Source: a virus
Lineage: Duplodnaviria; Heunggongvirae; Uroviricota; Caudoviricetes
IMG/VR virus record: IMGVR_UViG_2778261451_000006
Length of the DNA stretch: 36,228 nucleotides
Direction: 5' to 3' (one strand)
In this document: piece by piece, positions 1 to 14,706 of the stretch
Position numbering within the stretch: the first letter of the stretch is position 1
Layout of the letters: the number at the start of each line of letters is the position of its first letter
Program-made: the position numbers and the translations under genes
The notes under the pieces: generated by a model
Seen by the model: only the letters and a program-made list of their open reading frames with translations
What the model was told of the DNA's origin: nothing
Database searches by the model: none

Positions 1-1254
1 ATGCTGGAACAAATGGGCATTGCCGCGAAGCAAGCCTCGTATAAATTAGCGCAACTCTCCAGCCGCGAAAAAAATCGCGTGCTGGAAAAAATCGCCGATG
101 AACTGGAAGCACAAAGCGAAATCATCCTCAACGCTAACGCCCAGGATGTTGCTGACGCGCGTGCCAATGGCCTTGGCGAAGCGATGCTTGACCGTCTGGC
201 ACTGACGCCCGCACGGCTGAAAGGCATTGCCGATGATGTGCGCCAGGTGTGTAACCTCGCCGATCCGGTGGGGCAGGTAATCGATGGCAGCGTACTGGAC
301 AGCGGCCTGCGTCTTGAGCGTCGTCGCGTACCGCTGGGGGTTATTGGCGTGATTTATGAAGCGCGCCCGAACGTGACGGTTGATGTCGCTTCGCTGTGCC
401 TGAAAACCGGTAACGCAGTGATTCTGCGTGGCGGTAAAGAAACCTGTCGCACTAACGCGGCAACGGTGGCGGTGATTCAGGACGCCCTGAAATCCTGTGG
501 CTTACCGGTGGGTGCCGTGCAGGCGATTGATAATCCTGACCGTGCGCTGGTCAGTGAAATGCTGCGTATGGATAAATACATCGACATGCTGATCCCGCGT
601 GGTGGCGCTGGTTTGCATAAACTGTGCCGCGAACAGTCGACGATCCCGGTGATCACAGGTGGTATAGGCGTATGCCATATTTATGTTGATGAAAGTGTAG
701 AGATTGCTGAAGCATTAAAAGTGATCGTCAACGCGAAAACTCAGCGTCCGAGCACATGTAATACGGTAGAAACGTTGCTGGTGAATAAAAACATCGCCGA
801 TAGCTTCCTGCCCGCATTAAGCAAACAAATGGAGGAAAGCGGCGTGGCATTACACGCAGATGCAGCTGCGCTGGCGCAGTTGCAGACAGGCCCCGCGAAG
901 GTGGTGGCTGTTAAAGCGGAAGAGTATGACGATGAGTTTCTGTCATTAGATTTGAACGTCAAAATCGTCAGTGATCTTGACGATGCCATCGCCCATATTC
1001 GTGAACACGGCACACAACACTCCGATGCGATCCTGACCCGCGATATGCGCAACGCCCAGCGTTTTGTTAACGAAGTGGATTCGTCCGCTGTTTACGTTAA
1101 CGCCTCTACGCGTTTTACCGACGGCGGCCAGTTTGGACTAGGTGCGGAAGTGGCGGTAAGCACACAAAAACTCCACGCGCGTGGCCCAATGGGGCTGGAA
1201 GCACTGACCACTTACAAGTGGATCGGTATTGGTGATTACACCATTCGTGCGTAA
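1..1254 (+). CDS. proA: gamma-glutamyl phosphate reductase (glutamate-5-semialdehyde dehydrogenase), complete
   Basis: 417-aa ORF; translation recognised as near-identical to enterobacterial ProA over its whole length (from memory, not a search). Confidence 0.95.
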
Positions 1255-1368
1255 ATAAAACCGGGTGATGCAAAAGTAGCCATTTGATTCACAAGGCCAT
1301 TGACGCATCGCCCGGTTAGTTTTAACCTTGTCCACCGTGATTCACGTTCGTGAACATGTCCTTTCAGG

Positions 1369-1444
1369 GCCGATATAGCTCAGTTGGTAGAGCAGCGCAT
1401 TCGTAATGCGAAGGTCGTAGGTTCGACTCCTATTATCGGCACCA
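1369..1444 (+). tRNA. thrW: tRNA-Thr (anticodon CGT)
   Basis: 76-nt sequence GCCGATATAGCTCAGTTGGTAGAGCAGCGCATTCGTAATGCGAAGGTCGTAGGTTCGACTCCTATTATCGGCACCA with cloverleaf arms, CGT anticodon and 3' CCA; follows proA as in E. coli. Confidence 0.9.
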
Positions 1445-1458
1445 TTTAAATCAATAAG

Positions 1459-2622
1459 TTACACATCATTAGTACCTTCCTTATTTTTTGACTGGGACAA
1501 ATTTGGGACCGATGGGTTCAGGATCGAGTCTATTTGCCGTGCGTGTTCGGTAAGGTGATTAGGTGCAAGGTGAGCATATCGACGAACCATTTCGATAGAC
1601 TCCCAGCCTCCCATTTCCTGTAACACTGACAACGGGACTCCGGCTTGAACCAGCCAACTTGCCCAGGTGTGTCTCAAGTCGTGAAATCTGAAATCATCAA
1701 TACCAGCCCGTCTCAGCGCCGCTTTCCAGGCTGTGTTTGCGTCATACCGCATCTTCCTTACTGTTGGCGCTTTCGTTCCGTCTGGTTTGGTACAGCTTTC
1801 CTTGTACACAAATACCCAACGGTGATGATTCCCGATTTGTTTTTTCAAAACGCGACATGCAGTATCATTCAGCGCAACGCCAATTGCGCGGTTTGATTTA
1901 CTCTCTTCCGGGTTTATCCATGCCACCCGGCGCTGCATATCTATTTGTTGCCATTCAAGGTTGATGATGTTCGAGCGTCTTAAGCCTGTTGCCAGTGCAA
2001 ATTCAACAACAGACTTTAATGGCTCCGGACATTCATCAATCAGCCTTTGTGCTTCATGGGGCTCCAGCCAGCGGATCCGTTTATTCTTTGGTTGGGGCAC
2101 TTTAATAATTGGTGCCTTATCCAGCATTTTCCATTCACGCTCTGCGGCTCTTAGTAGGGCCTTTATAAATGAAAGATGCGTAGCCTTCGTTGCAACGGAC
2201 GCTGGTTTTGGCGTGTATTCTGGAACAGGTTTCCCTTTTTTTCTGCATGCTTCTGCCCTGAGTTTCCAGTTTTCCTCATGACGCCGGTTCGTCATTTTCT
2301 GCATTGCTGAATAAATTTTTGATTCAGTAATGTCTCTTAGTTGCATTCCTGCGAAATGTTGAAGCCAGAATCCGATCCGGCTTTTGTCATCGTCCAGTGA
2401 TTTTTTATGTGCTTTCTCTTCAAGCCACCTGACACACGCTTCCTCGAACGTTATATCAGGTATTTCACCAAGTTTGCTGACCCGCCATGCTTCAGCCTTT
2501 AGCTTGTCATGGAGTTCTGTCGCCTGCCTTTTGTCCTTTGTTCCAAGAGACTGTTTAAATCTTTTACCGTTCGGCAATGTGAAACTGGCGTACCATATTT
2601 CACCTCTGCGGAAGAGTGACAT
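1459..2622 (-). CDS. int: phage integrase, tyrosine recombinase (P22 Int-like)
   Basis: 387-aa ORF ending 15 bp from thrW; C-terminal [15 protein letters not shown]...RYAHL tyrosine-recombinase motifs; N-terminus [14 protein letters not shown] recalled as P22-type Int. Confidence 0.95.
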
Positions 2623-3154: not shown

Positions 3155-3516
3155 TATGCTCCAGCCTCCGGTGCTTTTGGCATTACTGCCCAGTGAGTGA
3201 TATTGACGTTTTCAAGGTCCCCGACCTGAAATGTCCACTGCCATTCTCCGGTTTCTTTTTGTCCCCAGGTGTACCAGAGAGAACGCCAGCCAATTAGCCA
3301 GCCTTCTCCGTTAGCATCGAATAACAAAACACTTTCATTTGCTGGTGGCAGTTCAGTTGACACTGGTATTACTTTGTTTTCCTGTGCTGCACATTTAGCT
3401 TCAAGCGCATCGAATTTACGCACTAGGTATTCAGCATCTGTTTCATTTACTTTCAGATCTCGCGGTACACATCTCCCACGAAGAAACCCTTCCATTTCGA
3501 AAACATTCATGCGCAT
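3154..3516 (-). CDS. hypothetical early protein (YfdS-like)
   Basis: 120-aa ORF tightly packed in the operon; Trp-rich C-terminus; resembles YfdS from memory. Confidence 0.6.
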   Translation of the reverse strand: MRMNVFEMEGFLRGRCVPRDLKVNETDAEYLVRKFDALEAKCAAQENKVIPVSTELPPANESVLLFDANGEGWLIGWRSLWYTWGQKETGEWQWTFQVGDLENVNITHWAVMPKAPEAGA

Positions 3517-4070
3517 TTGCGTAACTCCGATAACTCGTTAAAGCGTTCCATAAACATCCCGTAGGCATGGCCCGGTGCCAGTGGAATCACGTTGAACATC
3601 TCTGTTGCCGGGATACCTTCCAGTACAGGCCAGAAAGAGCCATCATCAAGCCCGAGATCGCGGCGTTCGGTTGCCAGCATGATGAGATCGGCATATTTCA
3701 CGGGCGTACTCATAACTGGGGGTAACCCGTATTTCTCACGGATTACGGCGTCTATTTTTTCTTCCATTTGTTTATAGTCAGGAAGAAGGCGTTTCAGTGG
3801 TGCGGGAATGTCCTGGCAATACGCTTCTGTTGCATCATGCATTAACGCTTCAAAAGCAAATTCCTGCGGCACCAGCTGGCTGCAAAGAACCGCATGTTGG
3901 GCGACGCTGTAGAAGTGCGAAAGATGACCGGCAAAGCGACAGATATTTGAAAGGGAAACCGCGATATCGTTAATATCGATGTCGTCTTTATTTATCCTGT
4001 CATAATAAAAATGCTTCCCGGAAAAAGTTTTAATAAATGACATTTTGTTCTCCACGTATATGCGCTGCAC
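3507..4070 (-). CDS. HD-domain phosphohydrolase (YfdR-like 5'-deoxynucleotidase)
   Basis: 187-aa ORF with HD-type metal-binding residues (H..H, HD, D spacing in ...CRFAGHLSHF...ALMHDATEAY...). Confidence 0.75.
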   Translation of the reverse strand: MQRIYVENKMSFIKTFSGKHFYYDRINKDDIDINDIAVSLSNICRFAGHLSHFYSVAQHAVLCSQLVPQEFAFEALMHDATEAYCQDIPAPLKRLLPDYKQMEEKIDAVIREKYGLPPVMSTPVKYADLIMLATERRDLGLDDGSFWPVLEGIPATEMFNVIPLAPGHAYGMFMERFNELSELRKCA

Positions 4071-4170: not shown

Positions 4171-4995
4171 TCAGGCGGTGAAAGTACCAATAAAGGTTTC
4201 TACTTTGCTGTCCTTGAATTTCTCAACAAGCAGATCACGAAATTCGTTAGCCATTTCTTCCTGCACCGCCTCCAGCTGAATAATGCGCAGAACCAGTACA
4301 GGACGATCGCCAGTGATAATACTGAGGCGTAATTTAAACGGACGTTCTTTCAGACCTTCAAACGGAACGCATTTAAATTCAAATGCCACTGGCATAATGT
4401 CTTTGGTCTTCGCTTCGACAGACTCCATCAGGGAGCGTTTGCCGCTGAAGTCATTATCTTCAAAATCAGCGGTCTGGTTTGCTTCAATCGTGATTTTACG
4501 GACAGCCGCAGCCGCTTTTGTTGCCTGAATAGCGTCACCATTAGCATCAAAGCCCACAAGATAGTCGGCCCAGTCTTCAATCCATTCTGCCAGTGACTTC
4601 TGGGAGTTACGCTCGCCGTTAACAGACAACAGAGCAGAGAACGGTGCTGTCTTTTTCAGTTTGAGTGTGGCGGTGTTATCTGCGTGACCTGGTTCATCAA
4701 TAGTACCCAGGTTAAGCACACTGACGGCACGCATATTATCAGCATCGATAAAGCAGCGGGTGCCTTCATCTGCAAGATCTTTAGAATAACGGGTAAAGTC
4801 ATCGATGCTGGCAGTGGAAAGCGCACCACGGAAACGGAAGCGATTTAAATTAAATTTTTCCAGATCATGAATGCGGAAATTCTCAGGCAATGCCACAGCA
4901 TCGGCACCAATCTTACTGATAATTTCATTAACACCCTGAGCAGAAATAAGGGCATGGATTTGATTAATTGCGGTTGCGTCTAAGTTCTGAGACAT
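4171..4995 (-). CDS. DUF2303-family prophage protein (YfdQ-like)
   Basis: 274-aa ORF; same size and position as YfdQ in the YfdP-T module; family recalled from memory. Confidence 0.65.
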
Positions 4996-5060: not shown

Positions 5061-5423
5061 TTAATGACCTGCTGCGCGTAGTTTTCCGTCAGGTTCACCG
5101 GCAAGAGTCAGTAATTGTCCCTGGTCTTCCTGCAGAATAGTCAGGCGACCACCGCGATTGACATACATCGGCGTTTCGGTGGTGTCTTCTTCAGAAATTT
5201 TCCCGCGGTTAGTCGGGCGAACATATGAGAGTTTGTGTTTGATTTTCACACGGTTCTCATCAAACGGTTCGATTTCCAGATTGAGTGAGACCTTCCCTTT
5301 GGTTTTCGTGTTCATCACACCGGAAGCGACTTCACTGAGAACTGCGCCGATTTTGGTTTCAAATACGCCGCCGTCCAGCTCCCCGATAAATGCCTGCACA
5401 TCAGTACTGCGTTCGCTAGCCAT
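5061..5423 (-). CDS. hypothetical early protein (YfdP-like), 120 aa
   Basis: Start moved to ATG at 5423 (MASERS...) with AGGAG 7 nt upstream; the 226-aa ORF-track version has a non-protein-like N-terminal extension. Confidence 0.6.
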   Translation of the reverse strand: MASERSTDVQAFIGELDGGVFETKIGAVLSEVASGVMNTKTKGKVSLNLEIEPFDENRVKIKHKLSYVRPTNRGKISEEDTTETPMYVNRGGRLTILQEDQGQLLTLAGEPDGKLRAAGH

Positions 5424-5891
5424 TTTGCTGCTCCTCATCATATCGACCCTGCAAGGTCGGTTGGTTTCTCCACAAAACAGAGAAGAACACCTGCGGTGGC
5501 AGCCGCCCGGATGGATTGGGTTATGAGCCCGTCGTCCGGTGATGCTCTTCTCTGTTTTGTAAAAAGGACGGTACCAGCCGTAAGCAAGGGTACAAACTGG
5601 TACCGCCAGGACTACACACAGCATAAAGTTGTGGTGCCGGGTGCCTCCCGGTGCCTGGCGAAGGTTGCACACCAGGCGGGTGGGTATCCACAGAAGGTCG
5701 ACTGTCAGCCTCAACCTTAACCCGCGTGCGCTGAGCCGCATTCACCACAACGCTAAGGATTCTCTCTGGTTGAAAATACTTAGCTGTTATGTGCCTGCTT
5801 TTAGCCACATCAGGCGAGGTGGACCTGGTTATTCCCCAACAACAAGGATTCGGTTAATCTGGTTATCCCCAACAACGCAAAAGGAAAAGAA

Positions 5892-6326
5892 ATGTCCGGT
5901 AATATCTATACGCTGTACAAATCCCACTGTGAAAATGTTGGAAAGTATCGGGGCATTGAAATCAGTGGGGTAGTGTCATCAGTCGAAATAAGCAAAGTTG
6001 AATCAAGGGCAACATTACTTACTCTTTTGGACCTTGTCTTACATGAGCACCGGAAGAAATTCGGCACTCCCTATAATCAGTTGAATGGGAAAAAGGCTCT
6101 GGTTCACCTTATTCTGATGAAGCATCACTGGATGCCAAAACAGATTAATGAGATGAAATTTGATGAACTTCTTCTTTCAATTCAGGATGAACTCACACTT
6201 GATAAAATAAGCGTAACCGCCCAGAAATTTTTAGATTATCGAGACTGGAGATCACAAATTCATCACTTTGATGATTTTGACGAAAATGAATGGGATCCTA
6301 ATTTGTCTGCACAATATCTAAAGTAA
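5892..6326 (+). CDS. hypothetical protein, AT-rich moron, opposite strand to the early-left operon
   Basis: 144-aa ORF with AAGGAAAAG upstream; visibly AT-rich against GC-rich flanks; two ~18-nt direct repeats immediately upstream; plus-strand terminator at 6564–6587. Confidence 0.5.
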   Translation: MSGNIYTLYKSHCENVGKYRGIEISGVVSSVEISKVESRATLLTLLDLVLHEHRKKFGTPYNQLNGKKALVHLILMKHHWMPKQINEMKFDELLLSIQDELTLDKISVTAQKFLDYRDWRSQIHHFDDFDENEWDPNLSAQYLK

Positions 6327-6504
6327 CATCCTGTGATAAAACCGTGATTTCCTGATCCAGTTTTTTTAAGGAGTCTATTGTTTCCTGTCGATAAGACAGC
6401 ACTTCACGAAGCTGGTTTATAGCTGCCAGCTTCTTTGTCATCCACTCATAAATTTCCTCATCTGTGTAGCCAGGCGCGACGATTTTGGGTTCTGTTTTGT
6501 GCAT
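6298..6504 (-). CDS. hypothetical small protein (68 aa), convergent with the 144-aa gene
   Basis: ATG at 6504 with GAGGAG 7 nt upstream; charged, likely helical sequence; 3' end overlaps the 144-aa gene by 29 nt. Confidence 0.4.
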   Translation of the reverse strand: MHKTEPKIVAPGYTDEEIYEWMTKKLAAINQLREVLSYRQETIDSLKKLDQEITVLSQDVTLDIVQTN

Positions 6505-6563
6505 TTCACATCTCCTCAAGTTATCAGTTACTTGTTGATGGGGACCAGATTGTTAAAGAGCTA

Positions 6564-6587
6564 AGCGTCCTGTAGGGCGCTTTTTTG
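6564..6587 (+). terminator. putative rho-independent terminator
   Basis: Stem AGCGTCC/GGGCGCT (one G-U pair) with TGTA loop, then TTTTTTGTTG. Confidence 0.45.
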
Positions 6588-6751
6588 TTGCTAACGAATC
6601 ATCCTGGACTTCATATGCCCCAGGCGGCTACTTCGTGGGCGTCCTGCCTGTTCGTTTTTGACATTTACTGACTGCTTACGACACATGCACCGTGTTGCAA
6701 CCAGATTTTGTTGTAATCCTGTAGTTGGTCTGGAACAAAAGATAAAATTAA

Positions 6752-6790
6752 ATTGCGAGATATGCAAGTGATATTTGCGAGATATGCAAA
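6752..6790 (-). promoter_or_regulatory. putative left operator (two direct copies of TTGCGAGATATGCAA)
   Basis: Two 15-bp copies 22 bp apart, sharing the TTGCG-N-GCAA pattern with sites in the cI/cro intergenic region. Confidence 0.4.
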
Positions 6791-6800
6791 TTTATAGGTA

Positions 6801-6823
6801 ATAAAAAGCCACCTTTCGGTGGC
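6801..6823 (-). terminator. putative terminator downstream of the repressor gene
   Basis: Stem GCCACC/GGTGGC with TTTC loop; on the minus strand it is followed by a T-run (plus AAAAA 6803–6807), 20 bp past the cI stop. Confidence 0.5.
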
Positions 6824-6843
6824 CGATGGATGGGATATTGAGG

Positions 6844-7536
6844 TTAATTATGTCTCTTAAGGGTTTGCGACTGACTGATTAAGACCTTTCCAAAGACCAT
6901 GAATCGGTGTTCGTTTTCGCTAGTAATTCCCCATTCACGGTAAATCTGGTTATCAGAAATCACCAGCAGTTTGTCAGGAATCATTTGAAGTCTTTTAACG
7001 TATATTTTGTCATCAAAACCAAAGACATATATACCATCACCATCAAACTGATTGATGCTGACATCAACGAAGATGAGATCTCCTGGCTCAATGGTTGGAC
7101 ACATACTGTCCCCACGAACGTTGATAACTTTGATGTGATTGGCTGGTCGTCCGCCGAACATTGATACAGCATTATCAGTTCTGTATTCGATGGCATGAAT
7201 CACATCAATGACATCACCGCCCTGGATAAGGCCATTTCCCGCACTGGCACTGATATCCAGCATTTCAATACGGAACACATCCTTCACCTGCGCAACATCC
7301 TCATTATTACTGTTTTTATATACAGTATTACTTTTGTGGGCAGAGGTAAAGAGATCAGCAATATCAACACCTAAGCTCTTGGCAATATTATTCAGTGTTT
7401 GTTCGGTAAATTGTTTTTGCTTACCCGTTTCTAAGCGCGAGATGTTCGCCGCATCTACTCCTATCGCTTCAGCGAGATCGGCGATTTTCATGTTCTTCGC
7501 TTGGCGAAGTTGTCTGACTCGGTTTCCTATGTTCAT
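6844..7536 (-). CDS. cI: prophage repressor, CI-like (HTH plus S24 LexA-type peptidase domain)
   Basis: 230-aa ORF; N-terminal HTH (VRQLRQAKNMKIADLAEAIGVDAANISRLETGK); C-terminal S24 signature (RGDSMCPTIEPGDLIFVD ... VKRL); divergent from a cro-like gene. Confidence 0.9.
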   Translation of the reverse strand: MNIGNRVRQLRQAKNMKIADLAEAIGVDAANISRLETGKQKQFTEQTLNNIAKSLGVDIADLFTSAHKSNTVYKNSNNEDVAQVKDVFRIEMLDISASAGNGLIQGGDVIDVIHAIEYRTDNAVSMFGGRPANHIKVINVRGDSMCPTIEPGDLIFVDVSINQFDGDGIYVFGFDDKIYVKRLQMIPDKLLVISDNQIYREWGITSENEHRFMVFGKVLISQSQTLKRHN

Positions 7537-7633: not shown

Positions 7634-7894
7634 ATGCAATCACCATTACGAAATGTGCGTAAGGCGCATGGTTTCACTTTGCAGCATGTTGCTGCGGGTG
7701 TTCAAGTCAATCCAGCGACGTTGAGTCGTATTGAGAGGCTGGAGCAGATTCCATCTATCGAGCTTGCAGAACGTTTAGCCAATTTTTTTAAGGGTGAAGT
7801 CAGCGAAATGCAGATTCTTTATCCGGCACGTTTTCAATCTAGCCAAAACCAGAATGGGTTTAAACCACAGGAACAGGAGGTGAACCGTGGGTAA
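7634..7894 (+). CDS. cro: Cro-like HTH regulator
   Basis: 86-aa ORF with GGAGGG upstream; HTH segment FTLQHVAAGVQVNPATLSRIE; first gene of the rightward operon. Confidence 0.7.
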   Translation: MQSPLRNVRKAHGFTLQHVAAGVQVNPATLSRIERLEQIPSIELAERLANFFKGEVSEMQILYPARFQSSQNQNGFKPQEQEVNRG

Positions 7895-8438
7895 GCATCA
7901 CTGGAAAGTAGAAAAACAGCCTGAGTGGTACGTGAAAGCTGTCAGAAAAACTATCGCAGCGTTGCCGGGGGGGTATGCTGAAGCTGCTGACTGGCTGGAT
8001 GTAACAGAGAACGCATTATTTAACCGCCTTCGTGCCGATGGCGATCAGATTTTCCCGCTGGGATGGGCAATGATTTTGCAACGTGCTGGTGGAACTCACT
8101 TCATTGCTGACGCTGTGGCGCAGTCTGCAAATGGCGTCTTTGTGTCTCTTCCTGATGTCGAGGATGTGGACAACGCCGATATCAACCAACGCCTGCTGGA
8201 GGTCATTGAACAGATCGGCAGTTATTCAAAACAGATTCGTTCAGCAATTGAAGACGGTGTAGTGGAACCGCATGAGAAGACAGCAATTAACGACGAGCTG
8301 TACCTCTCAATTTCGAAGCTGCAGGAGCATGCAGCACTGGTCTACAAAATCTTTTGCGTTTCAGAAAGTAGTGACGCCCGCGAGTGTGCAGCTCCGGGCG
8401 CCGTGGCGTGTCGTGACTGTGGAGAAACTAACGCATGA
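7887..8438 (+). CDS. CII-like regulatory protein (CP76-type)
   Basis: 183-aa ORF from GTG with AGGAGG 6 nt upstream; position and family recalled from memory. Confidence 0.55.
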
Positions 8439-13404: not shown

Positions 13405-14157
13405 ATGAACCTTGAAGCCTTACCAAAATATTACTCCCCAAAATCTCCAAAATTGAGTGATGACGCACCGGCGACAGGCTCGGGTGGTTTAACAATTACA
13501 GATGTGATGGCTGCGCAGGGGATGGTGCAGTCGAAAGCACCGCTTGGGTTTTCCTTATTCCTGGCAAAAGTTGGTGTTCAGGATCCTCAGTTTGCGATTG
13601 AAGGTCTGCTCAATTACGCGATGGCACTGGATAACCCGACATTGAACAAATTGAGTGAAGAAACCCGGCTACAGATCATTCCTTACCTTGTGAATTTTGC
13701 CTTTGCTGATTATTCCAGGTCTGCGGCAAGTAAGGCTCGCTGTGAGCATTGTGCTGGTACTGGATTTCATAATGTATTGCGCGAAGTGGTGAAACACTCC
13801 AGAAGCGGGGAGTCTGTTATCAAGGAAGAGTGGGTGAAGGAACTATGTCAGCATTGTCATGGTAAGGGAGAAGTCAGCACAGCGTGCAGAGGGTGTAAGG
13901 GTAAAGGTATTGTCCTGGATGAAAAAAGAACCCGGCTTCATGGCACGCCTGTTTATAAGATTTGTGGGCGTTGCAATGGAAACCGGTTTAGCCGTTTACC
14001 AACCACACTGGCGCGGCTTCATGTCCAGAAGCTGGTACCAGACCTGACGGATTATCAGTGGTACAAAGGATATGCAGATGTCATTGATAAACTGGTTACA
14101 AAGTGCTGGCAGGAGGAAGCTTACGCTGAAGCACAATTGAGAAGGGTGACGAGATAA
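13405..14157 (+). CDS. Q: late-gene antiterminator Q
   Basis: 250-aa ORF with multiple CxxC zinc-binding motifs (CEHCAGTG, CQHCHGKG, CRGCKGKG, CGRCNG); sits before the lysis genes. Confidence 0.8.
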   Translation: MNLEALPKYYSPKSPKLSDDAPATGSGGLTITDVMAAQGMVQSKAPLGFSLFLAKVGVQDPQFAIEGLLNYAMALDNPTLNKLSEETRLQIIPYLVNFAFADYSRSAASKARCEHCAGTGFHNVLREVVKHSRSGESVIKEEWVKELCQHCHGKGEVSTACRGCKGKGIVLDEKRTRLHGTPVYKICGRCNGNRFSRLPTTLARLHVQKLVPDLTDYQWYKGYADVIDKLVTKCWQEEAYAEAQLRRVTR

Positions 14158-14265
14158 GCGATTTTCGCCGAAGATAGCGACATAATACTTGTGTTTCTCA
14201 AAAAATATGGATAAGATTTTCTCAACGATGGGGCTTGTGTATCTATCGTTGAACAATTTTTACGA

Positions 14266-14289
14266 CCTCGCTATTGCGAGGTTTTTTTA
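14266..14289 (+). terminator. rho-independent terminator downstream of Q (tR'-like)
   Basis: Stem CCTCGC/GCGAGG with TATT loop, then TTTTTTTAT. Confidence 0.55.
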
Positions 14290-14325
14290 TGGTTTTTTTC
14301 TATTCAATCTACATCAAAATCAATG

Positions 14326-14334
14326 TGTTATAAT
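14326..14334 (+). promoter_or_regulatory. extended -10 element (TGtTATAAT)
   Basis: Perfect TATAAT with TG two bases upstream, 37 bp before the 89-aa gene; no good -35. May be a moron promoter or part of the late promoter. Confidence 0.3.
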
Positions 14335-14371
14335 GTTTTCTGTAAAACAACATTAAAGACAGGAGAACATT

Positions 14372-14641
14372 ATGAAACTGACCTCTATCCATCTTGAAAT
14401 ACTACGTCGAGTGAATGAATTGCAGCCAAAGGATTCTAGAATTCAGGCTGCATCATTACCTCATCTCTCAGCAAAAGAGGTTAATTTTGCTATTTCAGAT
14501 CTTGCTGATATAGGTTTTATCGATGTTATACGAAGCAAATCTGCCGAAGGTGGATTGATTGCTAATGAGATAACGTCAAAAGGTTTTGCTTTTTTGAGTG
14601 AGATTGGCGCTGAAAAAAATTCATCGATGAGCACTCATTGA
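14372..14641 (+). CDS. hypothetical small protein (89 aa), AT-rich moron
   Basis: ORF with AGGAGAACATT-ATG ribosome-binding site; AT-rich; perfect palindrome GGCTGCCAATTGGCAGCC follows at 14656–14673. Confidence 0.5.
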   Translation: MKLTSIHLEILRRVNELQPKDSRIQAASLPHLSAKEVNFAISDLADIGFIDVIRSKSAEGGLIANEITSKGFAFLSEIGAEKNSSMSTH

Positions 14642-14706
14642 TTTCTGCTTCAATCGGCTGCCAATTGGCAGCCTAAACTGTAAAGTGAATTTAAAATCGC
14701 CTACAA

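What the first reader, a model, noticed from the sequence alone, without database searches (positions are those of the whole stretch)
5825..6590. Convergent AT-rich gene pair in the immunity-region position, with upstream direct repeats
Between the early-left operon and cI (where lambda has rexAB and P22 has sieB) sits a 144-aa plus-strand gene against the minus-strand operon. It is preceded by two direct repeats (CTGGTTATTCCCCAACAAC 5825–5843; CTGGTTATCCCCAACAAC 5859–5876; GGTTA motifs at roughly helical spacing) and ends at a terminator about 240 bp past its stop (6564–6587). Its 3' UTR therefore runs antisense across the whole 68-aa minus-strand gene (6298–6504, good GAGGAG site). That layout allows antisense control, as in type I toxin-antitoxin or exclusion loci.
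Basis: partly seen in the sequence, partly recalled or inferred. Interest (0 to 1): 0.65.

Follow-up and report, generated by a model that had tools for sequence, protein, structure and literature searches.

The report
Conserved convergent prophage gene pair
The two facing genes are real and form a two-gene cassette of unknown function, an ECs1072-family protein plus a YdfC-like protein, that temperate phages of enterobacteria carry together at several different genome sites and, in Salmonella phage ST64B, express in the dormant prophage.

Summary
A 144-aa + strand gene (5892-6326) and a 68-aa - strand gene (6298-6504) converge with a 29-nt overlap. There are two direct repeats upstream and a + strand-specific terminator at 6563-6590. 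They sit in an AT-rich 771-bp mosaic cassette (5823-6593) just downstream of pL in an SfIV-like prophage.

The 144-aa protein (A) belongs to the uncharacterised ECs1072 family. It is predicted all-alpha and has no fold match. The 68-aa protein (B) is a homologue of YdfC from the Qin dicBF operon.

The main new result is that A-type genes almost always have a convergent, usually 3'-overlapping YdfC-like partner: 141 of 142 A-type ORFs, 57 distinct sequences. This holds at four different insertion sites: pL operon, cII-O, Q-holin and a P2-like early operon. A is always antisense to the lytic operon.

Published RNA-seq of the ST64B pair shows both genes transcribed in lysogens while neighbouring genes are silent.

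A type I toxin-antitoxin reading is not supported: both proteins are hydrophilic and match no toxin family. Antisense coupling is plausible but untested. Function is unknown. My best guess is a lysogen-expressed accessory or exclusion module with a partner-based control.

The parts
5823..6593 (.). Mosaic cassette carrying both genes, their leaders and the + strand terminator.
   Evidence: The flanks are 96-97% identical to SfV and SfII up to 5822, and 97% and above from 6593. SfV and SfII carry unrelated convergent gene pairs in between. GC is 35-43%. The two genes occur in 421 and 424 of 5426 complete E. coli genomes.
5825..5843 (+). Direct repeat 1 (CTGGTTATTCCCCAACAAC) in the 110-bp region between the sRNA gene and gene A.
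   Evidence: Conserved in E. albertii L005 and, in diverged form, in L004, whose protein is 56% identical.
5859..5876 (+). Direct repeat 2 (CTGGTTATCCCCAACAAC). It ends 15 nt before the A start codon.
   Evidence: 0 matches expected by chance.
5892..6326 (+). Gene A: a 144-aa ECs1072-family protein. It is soluble, all-alpha, and transcribed against the pL operon.
   Evidence: NCBIfam NF033230 scores 157.8 bits against a cut-off of 70; phrog_5286 E 1.5e-90. AF2 model pLDDT 85.5, pTM 0.83. No fold match. dN/dS 0.225.
6298..6504 (-). Gene B: a 68-aa acidic YdfC-like protein. It is the first ORF downstream of pL.
   Evidence: phrog_1744 E 6e-35. 39% identity to the annotated YdfC of PPompW, E 1e-17. 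hhalign against partners from other contexts gives probability 96.3%, E 1.7e-9.
6298..6326 (.). 29-nt overlap of the two coding 3' ends.
   Evidence: Overlaps of 29-317 nt occur in most of the 141 paired family members; the rest have gaps of up to 172 nt (389 nt in Proteus L011).
6408..6433 (+). Internal + strand hairpin (9 bp) followed by TTCTTTGT. A possible early stop for the A transcript inside gene B.
   Evidence: -15.6 kcal/mol. ST64B, Klebsiella and Yersinia relatives have a hairpin with a T tract 51-65 nt past the A stop.
6532..6551 (-). Third, inverted copy of the repeat motif (AATCTGGTCCCCATCAACAA on the - strand), in the leader of gene B.
   Evidence: pair I2. The A-leader to B-leader similarity has z 3.7 (1 of 300 shuffles). 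The predicted duplex between 5824-5886 and 6512-6549 on a + strand RNA is -29.4 kcal/mol, against -20.3 +/- 4.0 for shuffles (6 of 300).
6563..6590 (+). Intrinsic terminator of the + strand transcript. If used, the 3' UTR of A is antisense to all of gene B, including its ribosome-binding site.
   Evidence: The + strand hairpin is stronger than the - strand one, G-U pairs occur only on the + strand in L005, and the U tail is only on the + strand.
6739..6789 (-). OL operators (TTGCGAGATATGCAA twice) and a candidate pL promoter: -35 TTGCAT 6767-6762, 17 bp, -10 TATCTT 6744-6739.
   Evidence: The same motif occurs in the cI-cro interval. Relaxed promoter scan. The promoter itself is inferred.
5559..5781 (-). 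Flanking STnc100/PasD-family prophage sRNA gene. It is not part of the cassette but defines its left border.
   Evidence: Rfam RF02076 scores 43.1 bits (gathering score 47), E 1.3e-7, over the full model 1-206. Family described.

Best explanation
The locus is one copy of a mobile two-gene accessory ('moron') module of temperate enterobacterial phages.

The two genes:
- Gene A (ECs1072 family, about 145-155 aa, soluble and all-helical) is always oriented against the surrounding lytic operon.
- Gene B (a small acidic protein with a YdfC-like N-terminal domain) is always oriented with that operon.
- The two converge, and in most copies their 3' ends overlap.

In this window:
- B is the first ORF of the pL transcript.
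- A is transcribed the other way from the 110-bp region that holds the direct repeats.
- The A transcript ends at the internal hairpin (6408-6433) or at the strong terminator (6563-6590). It is therefore antisense to part or all of B.
- Any pL transcript is antisense to all of A.

Shown:
- the anatomy;
- the family assignments;
- the conserved pairing and orientation;
- purifying selection on A;
- lysogenic transcription of both genes, for the ST64B homologues.

Inferred:
- The overlap couples the two genes, through transcriptional interference and/or RNA duplex formation. A would prevail while the lytic promoter is repressed, and B would be boosted while A is shut down when it fires.
- Because the two proteins are kept together at four different insertion sites, they probably act on each other or on one target.
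- My preferred reading is that A is a lysogen-expressed effector, for superinfection exclusion or abortive infection, or some other accessory role, and that B modulates or neutralises it. This is the logic of sieB/esc or of defence systems with self-immunity.
- The repeated motif in both leaders is a shared control element of this cassette subtype.
For: Family assignments.

Pairing:
- 141 of 142 A-type ORFs (57 distinct sequences) have a convergent YdfC-like ORF next to them, out of 144 hits among 6904 ORFs searched.
- Partners not used to build the search model are still recovered: Serratia E 2.9e-12, L024 E 3e-16, L107 E 5e-20, Sakai E 9e-5.

Four insertion contexts:
- pL operon: the window, E. 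albertii, Yersinia, Pectobacterium and Proteus.
- cII-O in Sakai Sp4.
- Q-holin in ST64B and Klebsiella phages.
- A P2-like early operon in Pantoea.

Linkage and selection:
- 421 and 424 E. coli genomes carry A and B respectively.
- The E. albertii A allele has dS 0.76 and dN/dS 0.225, between flanks about 98% identical upstream and about 92% identical in and beyond B. This indicates an allele swap under purifying selection.

Transcription of the ST64B homologues:
- STMMW_20121 (435 nt, overlapping STMMW_20131 by 71 nt, exactly as in L014) has its own TSS and a median of 113 TPM.
- The partner has a median of 93 TPM. The holin has 0.3-33 TPM and STMMW_20141 has 2-7 TPM.
- A 10/12 sigma-70 promoter lies just upstream of sb50.

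Other: the terminator is + strand-specific. sieB follows A on the same strand in Yersinia L006. ECs1072 was detected as differentially expressed in Sakai.
Against: - No function is known for either family.
- No convincing sigma-70 promoter for A was found here. The best candidates score 6-7 of 12.
- B-type genes exist without A (Qin, PPompW). One A-type gene, in L004, has lost B. The pairing is therefore not strictly obligatory.
- In ST64B both genes are on in lysogens, and their levels are not anticorrelated (Spearman 0.37, p 0.14). A simple either/or switch is not shown.
- The leader motif is specific to this cassette subtype.
- No transcript data exist for this cassette itself.
- The sampled loci are dominated by a few lineages: 80 ST64B/Klebsiella-type and 34 Sakai-type.
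Confidence: 0.5

Rival explanations
1. Type I toxin-antitoxin locus. The 68-aa protein would be a toxin whose mRNA is silenced by the antisense 3' UTR of the 144-aa gene's transcript.
For: The transcripts converge and overlap at their 3' ends, and the + strand terminator lies beyond the B start. Bacillus prophage type I systems (txpA/ratA, bsrG/SR4) use exactly this convergent 3'-overlap geometry; this comparison is from my own knowledge.
Against: B is hydrophilic and acidic, with no membrane segment. It is homologous to YdfC, which sits unprotected in dicBF-type operons. The antisense partner encodes a conserved protein under purifying selection rather than a small RNA. The dicBF paper consulted describes ydfA, ydfB and ydfC only as small proteins of unknown function.
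Confidence: 0.07
2. A regulatory device of the prophage switch rather than a defence or exclusion module. Counter-transcription from A damps leaky pL (or pR, pR') read-through. A and/or B would be small regulators that tune induction, as convergent promoters do in phages 186 and P2.
Confidence: 0.2
3. Host-directed lysogenic-conversion cargo, for example stress tolerance or virulence modulation, unrelated to phage-phage conflict. B would act as chaperone or co-factor.
For: The gene has moron features and is expressed across infection-relevant conditions in Salmonella. The SfIV authors proposed orf35 and orf36 as candidates for virulence studies.
Against: There is no signal peptide or membrane segment and no similarity to effectors. 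The pair occurs in plant-associated, environmental and enteric genera alike, which fits a phage-centred role better.
Confidence: 0.15
4. There is no functional link. Two unrelated small ORFs happen to abut in a recombination hot spot, and the repeats are recombination scars.
For: The site is a mosaic hot spot with different cassettes in SfV and SfII. The repeats sit at the cassette edge.
Against: The pairing recurs in 141 of 142 cases at four insertion sites, down to about 20% A identity. The repeats and their inverted copy are conserved in L005 and, with matching changes (TGGATATC in both copies, seen by eye), in L004.
Confidence: 0.05

Closest known systems
ST64B STMMW_20121 / STMMW_20131 (sb50) locus, flagged as a candidate accessory locus by Owen et al. 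2020 (PMC7067206)
   Same: It is the same two families: the A gene matches NF033230 at 167.5 bits, and the partner is related by hhalign. It has the same convergent 3' overlap (71 nt) and A is antisense to lytic genes. RNA-seq shows both genes expressed in lysogens.
   Different: It sits at the Q-holin site rather than downstream of pL. The partner is longer (85-119 aa) and has its own strong promoter. There are no leader repeats of the window type. The published work treats only STMMW_20121 and does not note the pairing.
YdfC of the Qin prophage dicBF operon (ydfABC-dicF-dicB)
   Same: B is 39% identical to an annotated YdfC and falls in the same PHROG. Both are promoter-proximal genes of a repressor-controlled early-left operon, and both are followed by an sRNA gene: dicF there, an STnc100-like gene here.
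   Different: In the YdfC-type locus examined here (PPompW) and in published descriptions of the Qin dicBF operon, no ECs1072-type gene is present. YdfC itself has no known function.
P22 sieB / esc / sas superinfection-exclusion locus
   Same: It occupies the same region, left of pL. It is expressed from the prophage, with a phage-encoded antagonist and an antisense RNA layer (from my own knowledge). A sieB gene follows the A-type gene on the same strand in Yersinia L006.
   Different: There is no sequence or Pfam similarity to SieB. SieB is a membrane protein, whereas A is soluble. Esc is an in-frame product of sieB, not a convergent gene.
Convergent type I toxin-antitoxin systems of Bacillus prophages (txpA/ratA, bsrG/SR4)
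   Same: They have a prophage location, convergent transcription and a 3' overlap of tens to hundreds of nt.
   Different: Their toxins are small hydrophobic peptides and their antitoxins are non-coding RNAs. Here both partners are conserved hydrophilic proteins.
Lambda oop RNA versus the cII 3' end; convergent lytic and lysogenic promoters of coliphage 186 and P2
   Same: A lysogeny-side transcript runs antisense into a lytic-operon gene. The Sakai copy even sits between cII and O, where oop lies in lambda.
   Different: Those are non-coding or core-switch elements. This is a transferable protein-coding pair found at several sites.

Membership tests
ECs1072 family phage-associated protein (NCBIfam NF033230 / phrog_5286) | Whole-protein HMM score above the curated cut-off of 70 bits. 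| tested here: met
   157.8 bits, E 1.7e-46, covering model positions 2-142 of 142. phrog_5286 E 1.5e-90.
ECs1072 family phage-associated protein (NCBIfam NF033230 / phrog_5286) | Conserved family motifs (R54, L64, G66, A69, H72, W134) and a length of about 145-155 aa. | tested here: met
   Alignments A3, A4 and A5.
YdfC family / phrog_1744 | Sequence homology to YdfC over the full length. | tested here: met
   phrog_1744 E 6e-35 over 1-68 of 68. BLASTP 39% identity, E 1e-17, to the annotated YdfC of PPompW.
YdfC family / phrog_1744 | Location in a repressor-controlled early-left operon. | tested here: met
   It is the first ORF downstream of OL/pL. In PPompW the order is dicA, one ORF, then ydfC.
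Type I toxin-antitoxin system | A small hydrophobic, membrane-active toxin peptide. | tested here: not met
   B: GRAVY -0.50, maximum KD(19) 0.29, pI 4.8. A: GRAVY -0.47, maximum KD(19) 0.84.
Type I toxin-antitoxin system | A non-coding antisense RNA antitoxin overlapping the toxin mRNA. | tested here: inconclusive
   Antisense overlap is predicted from the gene and terminator positions. The antisense transcript is a conserved mRNA, and there are no transcript data for this cassette.
Type I toxin-antitoxin system | Toxicity of the toxin when expressed without the antitoxin. | not testable with these tools
   This needs expression experiments.
Prophage moron / accessory locus | Composition distinct from the flanks, and presence or absence polymorphism among related phages. 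| tested here: met
   GC 35-43% versus 52-58%. The cassette is replaced by others in SfV and SfII.
Prophage moron / accessory locus | Its own terminator. | tested here: met
   The + strand terminator at 6563-6590.
Prophage moron / accessory locus | Its own promoter. | tested here: inconclusive
   No site of at least 9/12 was found upstream of A. The best relaxed candidates score 6-7 of 12.
Prophage moron / accessory locus | Transcription in the lysogen independent of the lytic genes. | tested here: inconclusive
   Shown for the ST64B homologues only. ECs1072 was detected on a Sakai microarray. There are no data for this cassette.
Known anti-phage defence or exclusion systems (PADLOC-DB v2; SieB PF14163; RexAB) | An HMM match to a component of a described system. 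| tested here: not met
   PADLOC gave 0 families for both proteins. Pfam gave none above cut-off.
Lambda N-type antiterminator (occupant of the first position after pL) | An arginine-rich N-terminal RNA-binding motif. | tested here: not met
   The B sequence has 8 K+R in 68 residues and no arginine-rich stretch. The SfIV, SfV and SfII group is reported to lack N.

The most novel reading that the evidence does not exclude
The ECs1072-family protein and its convergent YdfC-like partner are a previously unrecognised two-protein prophage system. It would provide superinfection exclusion, abortive infection or a toxin-antidote-like function. The head-on, 3'-overlapping arrangement would itself be the control device: the prophage's own lytic transcription both silences the effector gene and raises the partner that neutralises it. 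This would give built-in self-immunity, and it would let the module be dropped into any lytic operon, which is why it is found at four different sites.
Probability: 0.3. Interest if true: 0.75.

Novelty: new variant of a known kind. Interest (0 to 1): 0.55.

Why it matters
Both families are catalogued only as 'hypothetical', and the pairing appears not to have been described. The module is present in about 8% of complete E. coli genomes. It also occurs in Shigella, Salmonella, Klebsiella, Yersinia, Pectobacterium, Proteus, Serratia and Pantoea prophages.

If the pair is an exclusion or defence system with orientation-encoded self-immunity, it would add a new small system. It would also add a general design rule for how prophage cargo is kept from harming its own phage.

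Even if the function is regulatory, the locus is compact and experimentally tractable. SfIV and ST64B lysogens exist, so it could serve as a model for convergent-transcription control.

Tried and rejected
Searches that found nothing:
- Pfam, PADLOC and NCBIfam gave nothing informative beyond the family names.
- afdb50 was unavailable.
- PHROG matches were all 'unknown function'.

Searches limited by the tools:
- The one genome-contig scan returned only 3 loci.
- The Sakai-type A has no match in the phage collection.

Ideas tested and dropped:
- B is not an N analogue: it has no arginine-rich motif.
- The conserved module GTGCCTG..CAGGCGG, left of the cassette, was first taken as the A promoter. 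It more likely belongs to the adjacent STnc100-like sRNA gene on the other strand.
- A leader motif shared by A and B is not a general feature of the family. It is seen only in window-type cassettes.
- 5'UTR-3'UTR pairing is modestly supported here (6 of 300 shuffles) but not in L004 (112 of 300).
- 'GGTTA at helical spacing' fails: the spacing is 25 and 9 bp.
- No consensus sigma-70 promoter was found for A.
- RNAalifold of the conserved pL-leader element could not assign a strand.
- The paper on E. coli prophage defence systems against temperate phages (title recalled from my own knowledge) did not appear as a held paper in the search, only in citing papers. Overlap with newly named systems could therefore not be checked.
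Full report
**1. Setting**

The window is an SfIV/SfV/SfII-type lambdoid prophage of E. coli or Shigella.
- The stretch 5400-6850 is 99% identical over its first 87% (5400-6664; the cI-proximal part differs) to phages Kati, vB_EcoS-569R4 and vB_EcoM-689R6, and 98% to SfIV.
- It is fully present in 401 complete E. coli genomes.
- The local gene order, is:
  - yfdR-like HD protein, 3507-4070 (-);
  - DUF2303, 4171-4995 (-);
  - yfdP, 5061-5429 (-);
  - a GC-rich non-coding stretch;
  - the 144-aa + strand ORF;
  - the 68-aa - strand ORF;
  - a + strand terminator;
  - two copies of TTGCGAGATATGCAA;
  - the cI terminator, 6824-6807 (-);
  - cI, 6844-7536 (-);
  - cro, 7634-7894 (+);
  - cII-like, 7887-8438 (+).
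- The same operator motif occurs twice between cI and cro. The copies at 6753-6789 are therefore OL, and pL fires leftward from there. A relaxed scan gives TTGCAT-17-TATCTT at 6767-6739.
- The cassette lies downstream of pL, in the N/sieB position rather than the rexAB position.

**2. The observation**

- The repeats are far beyond chance: 0.00 matches are expected in shuffles.
- The terminator works on the + strand only.
  - Its hairpin is -11.5 kcal/mol on the + strand and -7.5 on the - strand.
  - The U tract exists only on the + strand.
  - The E. albertii copy keeps two pairs as G-U on the + strand, which would be A-C mismatches on the other strand.
- The region is AT-rich relative to its left flank.
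  - a third, inverted copy of the repeat at 6532-6551 in the leader of the 68-aa gene;
  - a weaker + strand hairpin with a T tract inside the 68-aa gene at 6408-6433;
  - the cassette borders.
- The claim of helical spacing for the GGTTA motifs does not hold.

**3. Cassette borders**

- Identity to SfV and SfII runs to 5822 on the left and resumes at 6593 on the right.
- Between these points SfV and SfII carry other genes, again as a + strand ORF facing a - strand ORF.
- The site is therefore a recombination hot spot holding exchangeable cassettes.
- In E. coli the two genes of this cassette travel together: 421 genomes carry the 144-aa gene and 424 carry the 68-aa gene.

**4. The 144-aa protein (A)**

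- It is a member of NCBIfam NF033230, 'ECs1072 family phage-associated protein', a hypothetical equivalog, and of phrog_5286. Neither has a known function.
- A profile search of 1.84 billion representative proteins found 76 clusters, nearly all 145-155 aa long. Named members come from Escherichia, Salmonella, Yersinia, Pectobacterium, Proteus, Morganella and Pantoea.
- Conserved positions include R54, L64, G66, A69, H72 and W134.
- The AF2 model from a 17-sequence alignment is confident (pLDDT 85.5, pTM 0.83) and all-helical.
- The protein has no membrane segment.
- The E. albertii allele is only 72% identical in protein (dS 0.76, dN/dS 0.225). Yet it sits between an upstream flank about 98% identical and a B gene and right flank about 92% identical. 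That pattern indicates an allele exchange under purifying selection.

**5. The 68-aa protein (B)**

- It belongs to phrog_1744.
- It is 39-41% identical to YdfC, the third small protein of the Qin-type ydfABC-dicF-dicB operon. YdfC has no known function.
- B is acidic, hydrophilic and predicted coiled-coil-like. It has no arginine-rich motif, so it is not an N analogue.
- The SfIV paper lists the two genes as orf35 and orf36, 'no clear function', and notes that SfII, SfV and SfIV lack N.

**6. The key result: a conserved convergent pair**

I inspected the neighbourhoods of diverged A-type genes. Two rules emerged.

*Rule 1: A is always oriented against the surrounding lytic operon, whatever that operon is.*
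- The pL operon: the window, E. albertii, Yersinia, Pectobacterium and Proteus.
- The pR operon between cII and O: ECs1072 itself, now ECs_5703, in Sakai Sp4.
- The late operon between Q and the holin: ST64B and Klebsiella phages. The ORF is unannotated in the ST64B GenBank record.
- The cox-to-gpA early operon of a P2-like Pantoea prophage.

*Rule 2: the gene facing A, usually overlapping its 3' end, encodes a protein with the N-terminal motif (E/Q/G)P-x-(I/F)-x2-3-(G/D)-x4-(E/D/Q)(E/L)(I/L)-x-(E/A/D)W(M/L), the same as in B and YdfC.*
- I built an HMM from eight such partners and searched all 6904 ORFs of the 144 loci held.
- It found 144 hits, essentially all of them the convergent neighbour of an A-type gene.
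- Of 142 A-type ORFs (57 distinct sequences), 141 have such a partner. Most overlap by 29-317 nt; the rest lie within 172 nt, except Proteus L011 (next bullet).
- In Proteus L011 the partner the HMM scored is 389 nt away. The ORF that directly overlaps A there (190 aa, 5233-5805) also carries the motif, but only by eye.
- Partners not used as seeds are recovered independently: Serratia 2.9e-12, L024 3e-16, L107 5e-20, Sakai 9e-5.
- A profile-profile comparison of YdfC-type partners with the other partners gives probability 96.3% and E 1.7e-9 over 56 columns.
- The partners fall in different PHROGs (1744, 3501, 8304), all of unknown function.
- The one exception, L004, keeps a remnant of the partner's leader and has a hairpin right after the A stop.
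- YdfC-type genes do occur without A, in Qin and PPompW.
- Caveat: the loci are dominated by three lineages.

**7. Transcription evidence from a homologue**

Owen et al. 2020 singled out STMMW_20121 of prophage ST64B. [quoted passage not shown]
- Their supplementary table places it at 2090066-2090500 (435 nt), next to the holin and overlapping STMMW_20131 by 71 nt. That geometry is identical to the ST64B A-type ORF and sb50 in L014.

| Gene | TPM in lysogens (medians) |
|---|---|
| STMMW_20121 (A) | 5-269, median 113 |
| STMMW_20131 (partner, sb50) | 23-258, median 93 |
| Holin | 0.3-33 |
| STMMW_20141 | 2-7 |

- The A:B ratio varies 70-fold between conditions, so these are separate transcripts. 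The two levels are not anticorrelated (Spearman 0.37, p 0.14).
- A 10/12 sigma-70 promoter lies just upstream of sb50.
- A - strand terminator lies beyond the 5' end of A.
- A + strand terminator lies 65 nt past the A stop, inside sb50.
- The pair is therefore an autonomous, convergently transcribed unit in that phage, and each mRNA is antisense to the other gene.
- ECs1072 itself was scored as expressed and growth-phase responsive in Sakai.

**8. The repeats**

- The motif TCTGGT(TAT)CCCCA(A/T)CAAC occurs twice before A and once, inverted, before B.
- The similarity between the A leader and the B leader is significant here and in E. albertii (z 3.7-3.8). It is absent from the other subfamilies.
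- In L004, whose A protein is 56% identical, all copies carry TGGATATC instead of TGGTTATC (read by eye). This concerted change fits either a shared binding factor or base pairing.
- On a + strand RNA running from the A leader to the strong terminator, the 5' copy can pair with the 3' copy. The predicted energy is -29.4 kcal/mol, against -20.3 +/- 4.0 for shuffles (6 of 300). The equivalent test in L004 is not significant.
- ACAAGGA elements after the repeats resemble CsrA sites. That is a resemblance from memory and was not tested.
- No good sigma-70 promoter for A was found. By eye, TTCCCC-17-TAATCT is matched in L004 by TTCCTC-17-TACTCT. This is a candidate only.

**9. What it most likely is**

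The locus is a transferable two-gene accessory module. The shown and inferred steps are separated in the Best explanation section.
- The geometry guarantees sense-antisense overlap.
  - It spans at least 29 nt.
  - It reaches about 110 nt if A's transcript stops at the internal hairpin (6408-6433).
  - It reaches about 265 nt, covering all of B and its ribosome-binding site, if A's transcript reads to 6590.
  - All of A is covered by any pL transcript.
- The conservation of both pairing and orientation at four insertion sites is the strongest argument that the two products and their arrangement work together.
- I favour a lysogen-expressed effector with a partner that modulates it, with lytic read-through tipping the balance. 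This is inference.

**10. Comparison with known systems and novelty**

- Membership of the ECs1072 and YdfC families is met.
- Membership of type I toxin-antitoxin systems, SieB, Rex, N, or any PADLOC system is not met.
- What it works like is a different question from what it is. The nearest analogues are:
  - convergent 3'-overlapping type I systems of Bacillus prophages;
  - P22 sieB/esc/sas;
  - lambda oop versus cII;
  - the face-to-face promoters of 186 and P2.
- The individual families and the lysogenic expression of one member are already on record.
- The obligate-looking convergent pairing across contexts appears new, as far as the library at hand shows.
- I therefore rate it a new variant of a known kind (prophage accessory locus with antisense coupling), of moderate to good interest.

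Noticed in passing
window 5559-5781 (-): There is a near-threshold, full-length match to the prophage sRNA family STnc100 (RF02076): 43.1 bits against a gathering score of 47, E 1.3e-7. It lies directly left of the cassette, in the direction of the pL operon. A 2026 preprint relates STnc100 to the PasD sRNAs. RefSeq annotates part of this stretch as a frameshifted hypothetical pseudogene.
   Followed up: partly
window 5472-5560, and Yersinia L006 about 4670-4770, Pectobacterium L009 about 4600-4690: A long hairpin (25-nt arms, 84% complementary) lies between the sRNA-like region and yfdP. Its arms differ in sequence but stay complementary in the Yersinia and Pectobacterium prophages. This suggests a conserved structured RNA or a processing or termination element. 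It is followed by a second GC-rich hairpin and a conserved ACTACACACAGCA box.
   Followed up: partly
window 6594-6660 (pL leader); L005, L006-L009, L101-L108: This is a highly conserved element: CGAATCATCC, a hairpin, GCGGCTAC, then GGGCGTCCTGCCTGTTCG. The hairpin shows compensatory changes (CCTGG/CCAGG, CCCGG/CCGGG, CCGGTG/CACCGG, CCCGT/ACGGG). It lies between pL and the first gene in a phage group reported to lack N, so it could be a cis-acting RNA such as a put-like antiterminator. RNAalifold could not decide the strand. In Yersinia L006 and L105 it is duplicated around an inserted sieB cassette.
   Followed up: partly
window 6550-6561 (-): Read on the - strand, the sequence just downstream of the terminator hairpin is GCTCTTTAACAA. 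From my memory this matches 12 of 13 bases of the rrn/P22-type boxA, TGCTCTTTAACAA. The E. albertii copy reads CGCTCTTTAACAA. It lies in the pL transcript ahead of gene B and overlaps the inverted repeat copy.
   Followed up: no
window 5782-5822; also L002, L003, L006, L009, L011: A conserved module, GTGCCTG-N13-15-CAGGCG(G/A)..GGTGG, lies at the left edge of every cassette at this site, whatever genes the cassette carries. It is repeated before sieB in Yersinia L006. It may be the promoter or 5' end of the STnc100-like sRNA, or a recombination border.
   Followed up: partly
L014 (ST64B, AY055382) 3281-3715, + in the locus, which is the complement strand of the record: The ECs1072-family ORF of ST64B is not annotated in the GenBank or RefSeq phage records. 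It corresponds to STMMW_20121 of strain D23580. The PHROG match suggests that the annotated sb50 (119 aa) really starts at its residue 35, giving an 85-aa core.
   Followed up: yes
L016 (Sakai NC_002695) 14117-14677 (+): An unannotated 165-186-aa ORF lies between ECs_1071 and ECs_1073 and matches phrog_8304 at E 4e-120. It is the convergent YdfC-like partner of ECs_5703 (formerly ECs1072) and overlaps it by more than 250 nt.
   Followed up: partly
L002 (SfV) 3463-3921 and L003 (SfII) 3408-3750: The alternative cassettes at the same site in SfV and SfII also consist of a small + strand ORF facing a - strand ORF. Both - strand ORFs share the same N-terminus (MLKQVYEMKVQILNNNCEVVW...). Convergent pairs may be a general feature of this hot spot.
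   Followed up: no
L001 (E. coli LST200A) 995-2596: In an otherwise near-identical prophage, the DUF2303 (yfdQ-like) gene is split by an IS1A insertion.
   Followed up: no
window 1-2622: A 417-aa ORF ends at 1254. It is followed by a tRNA gene (1369-1441, +) and then an integrase ORF (1459-2622, -). This is the left prophage end at a tRNA attachment site, as expected for thrW-integrating SfV-type phages. The last point is from my own knowledge and was not tested.
   Followed up: no
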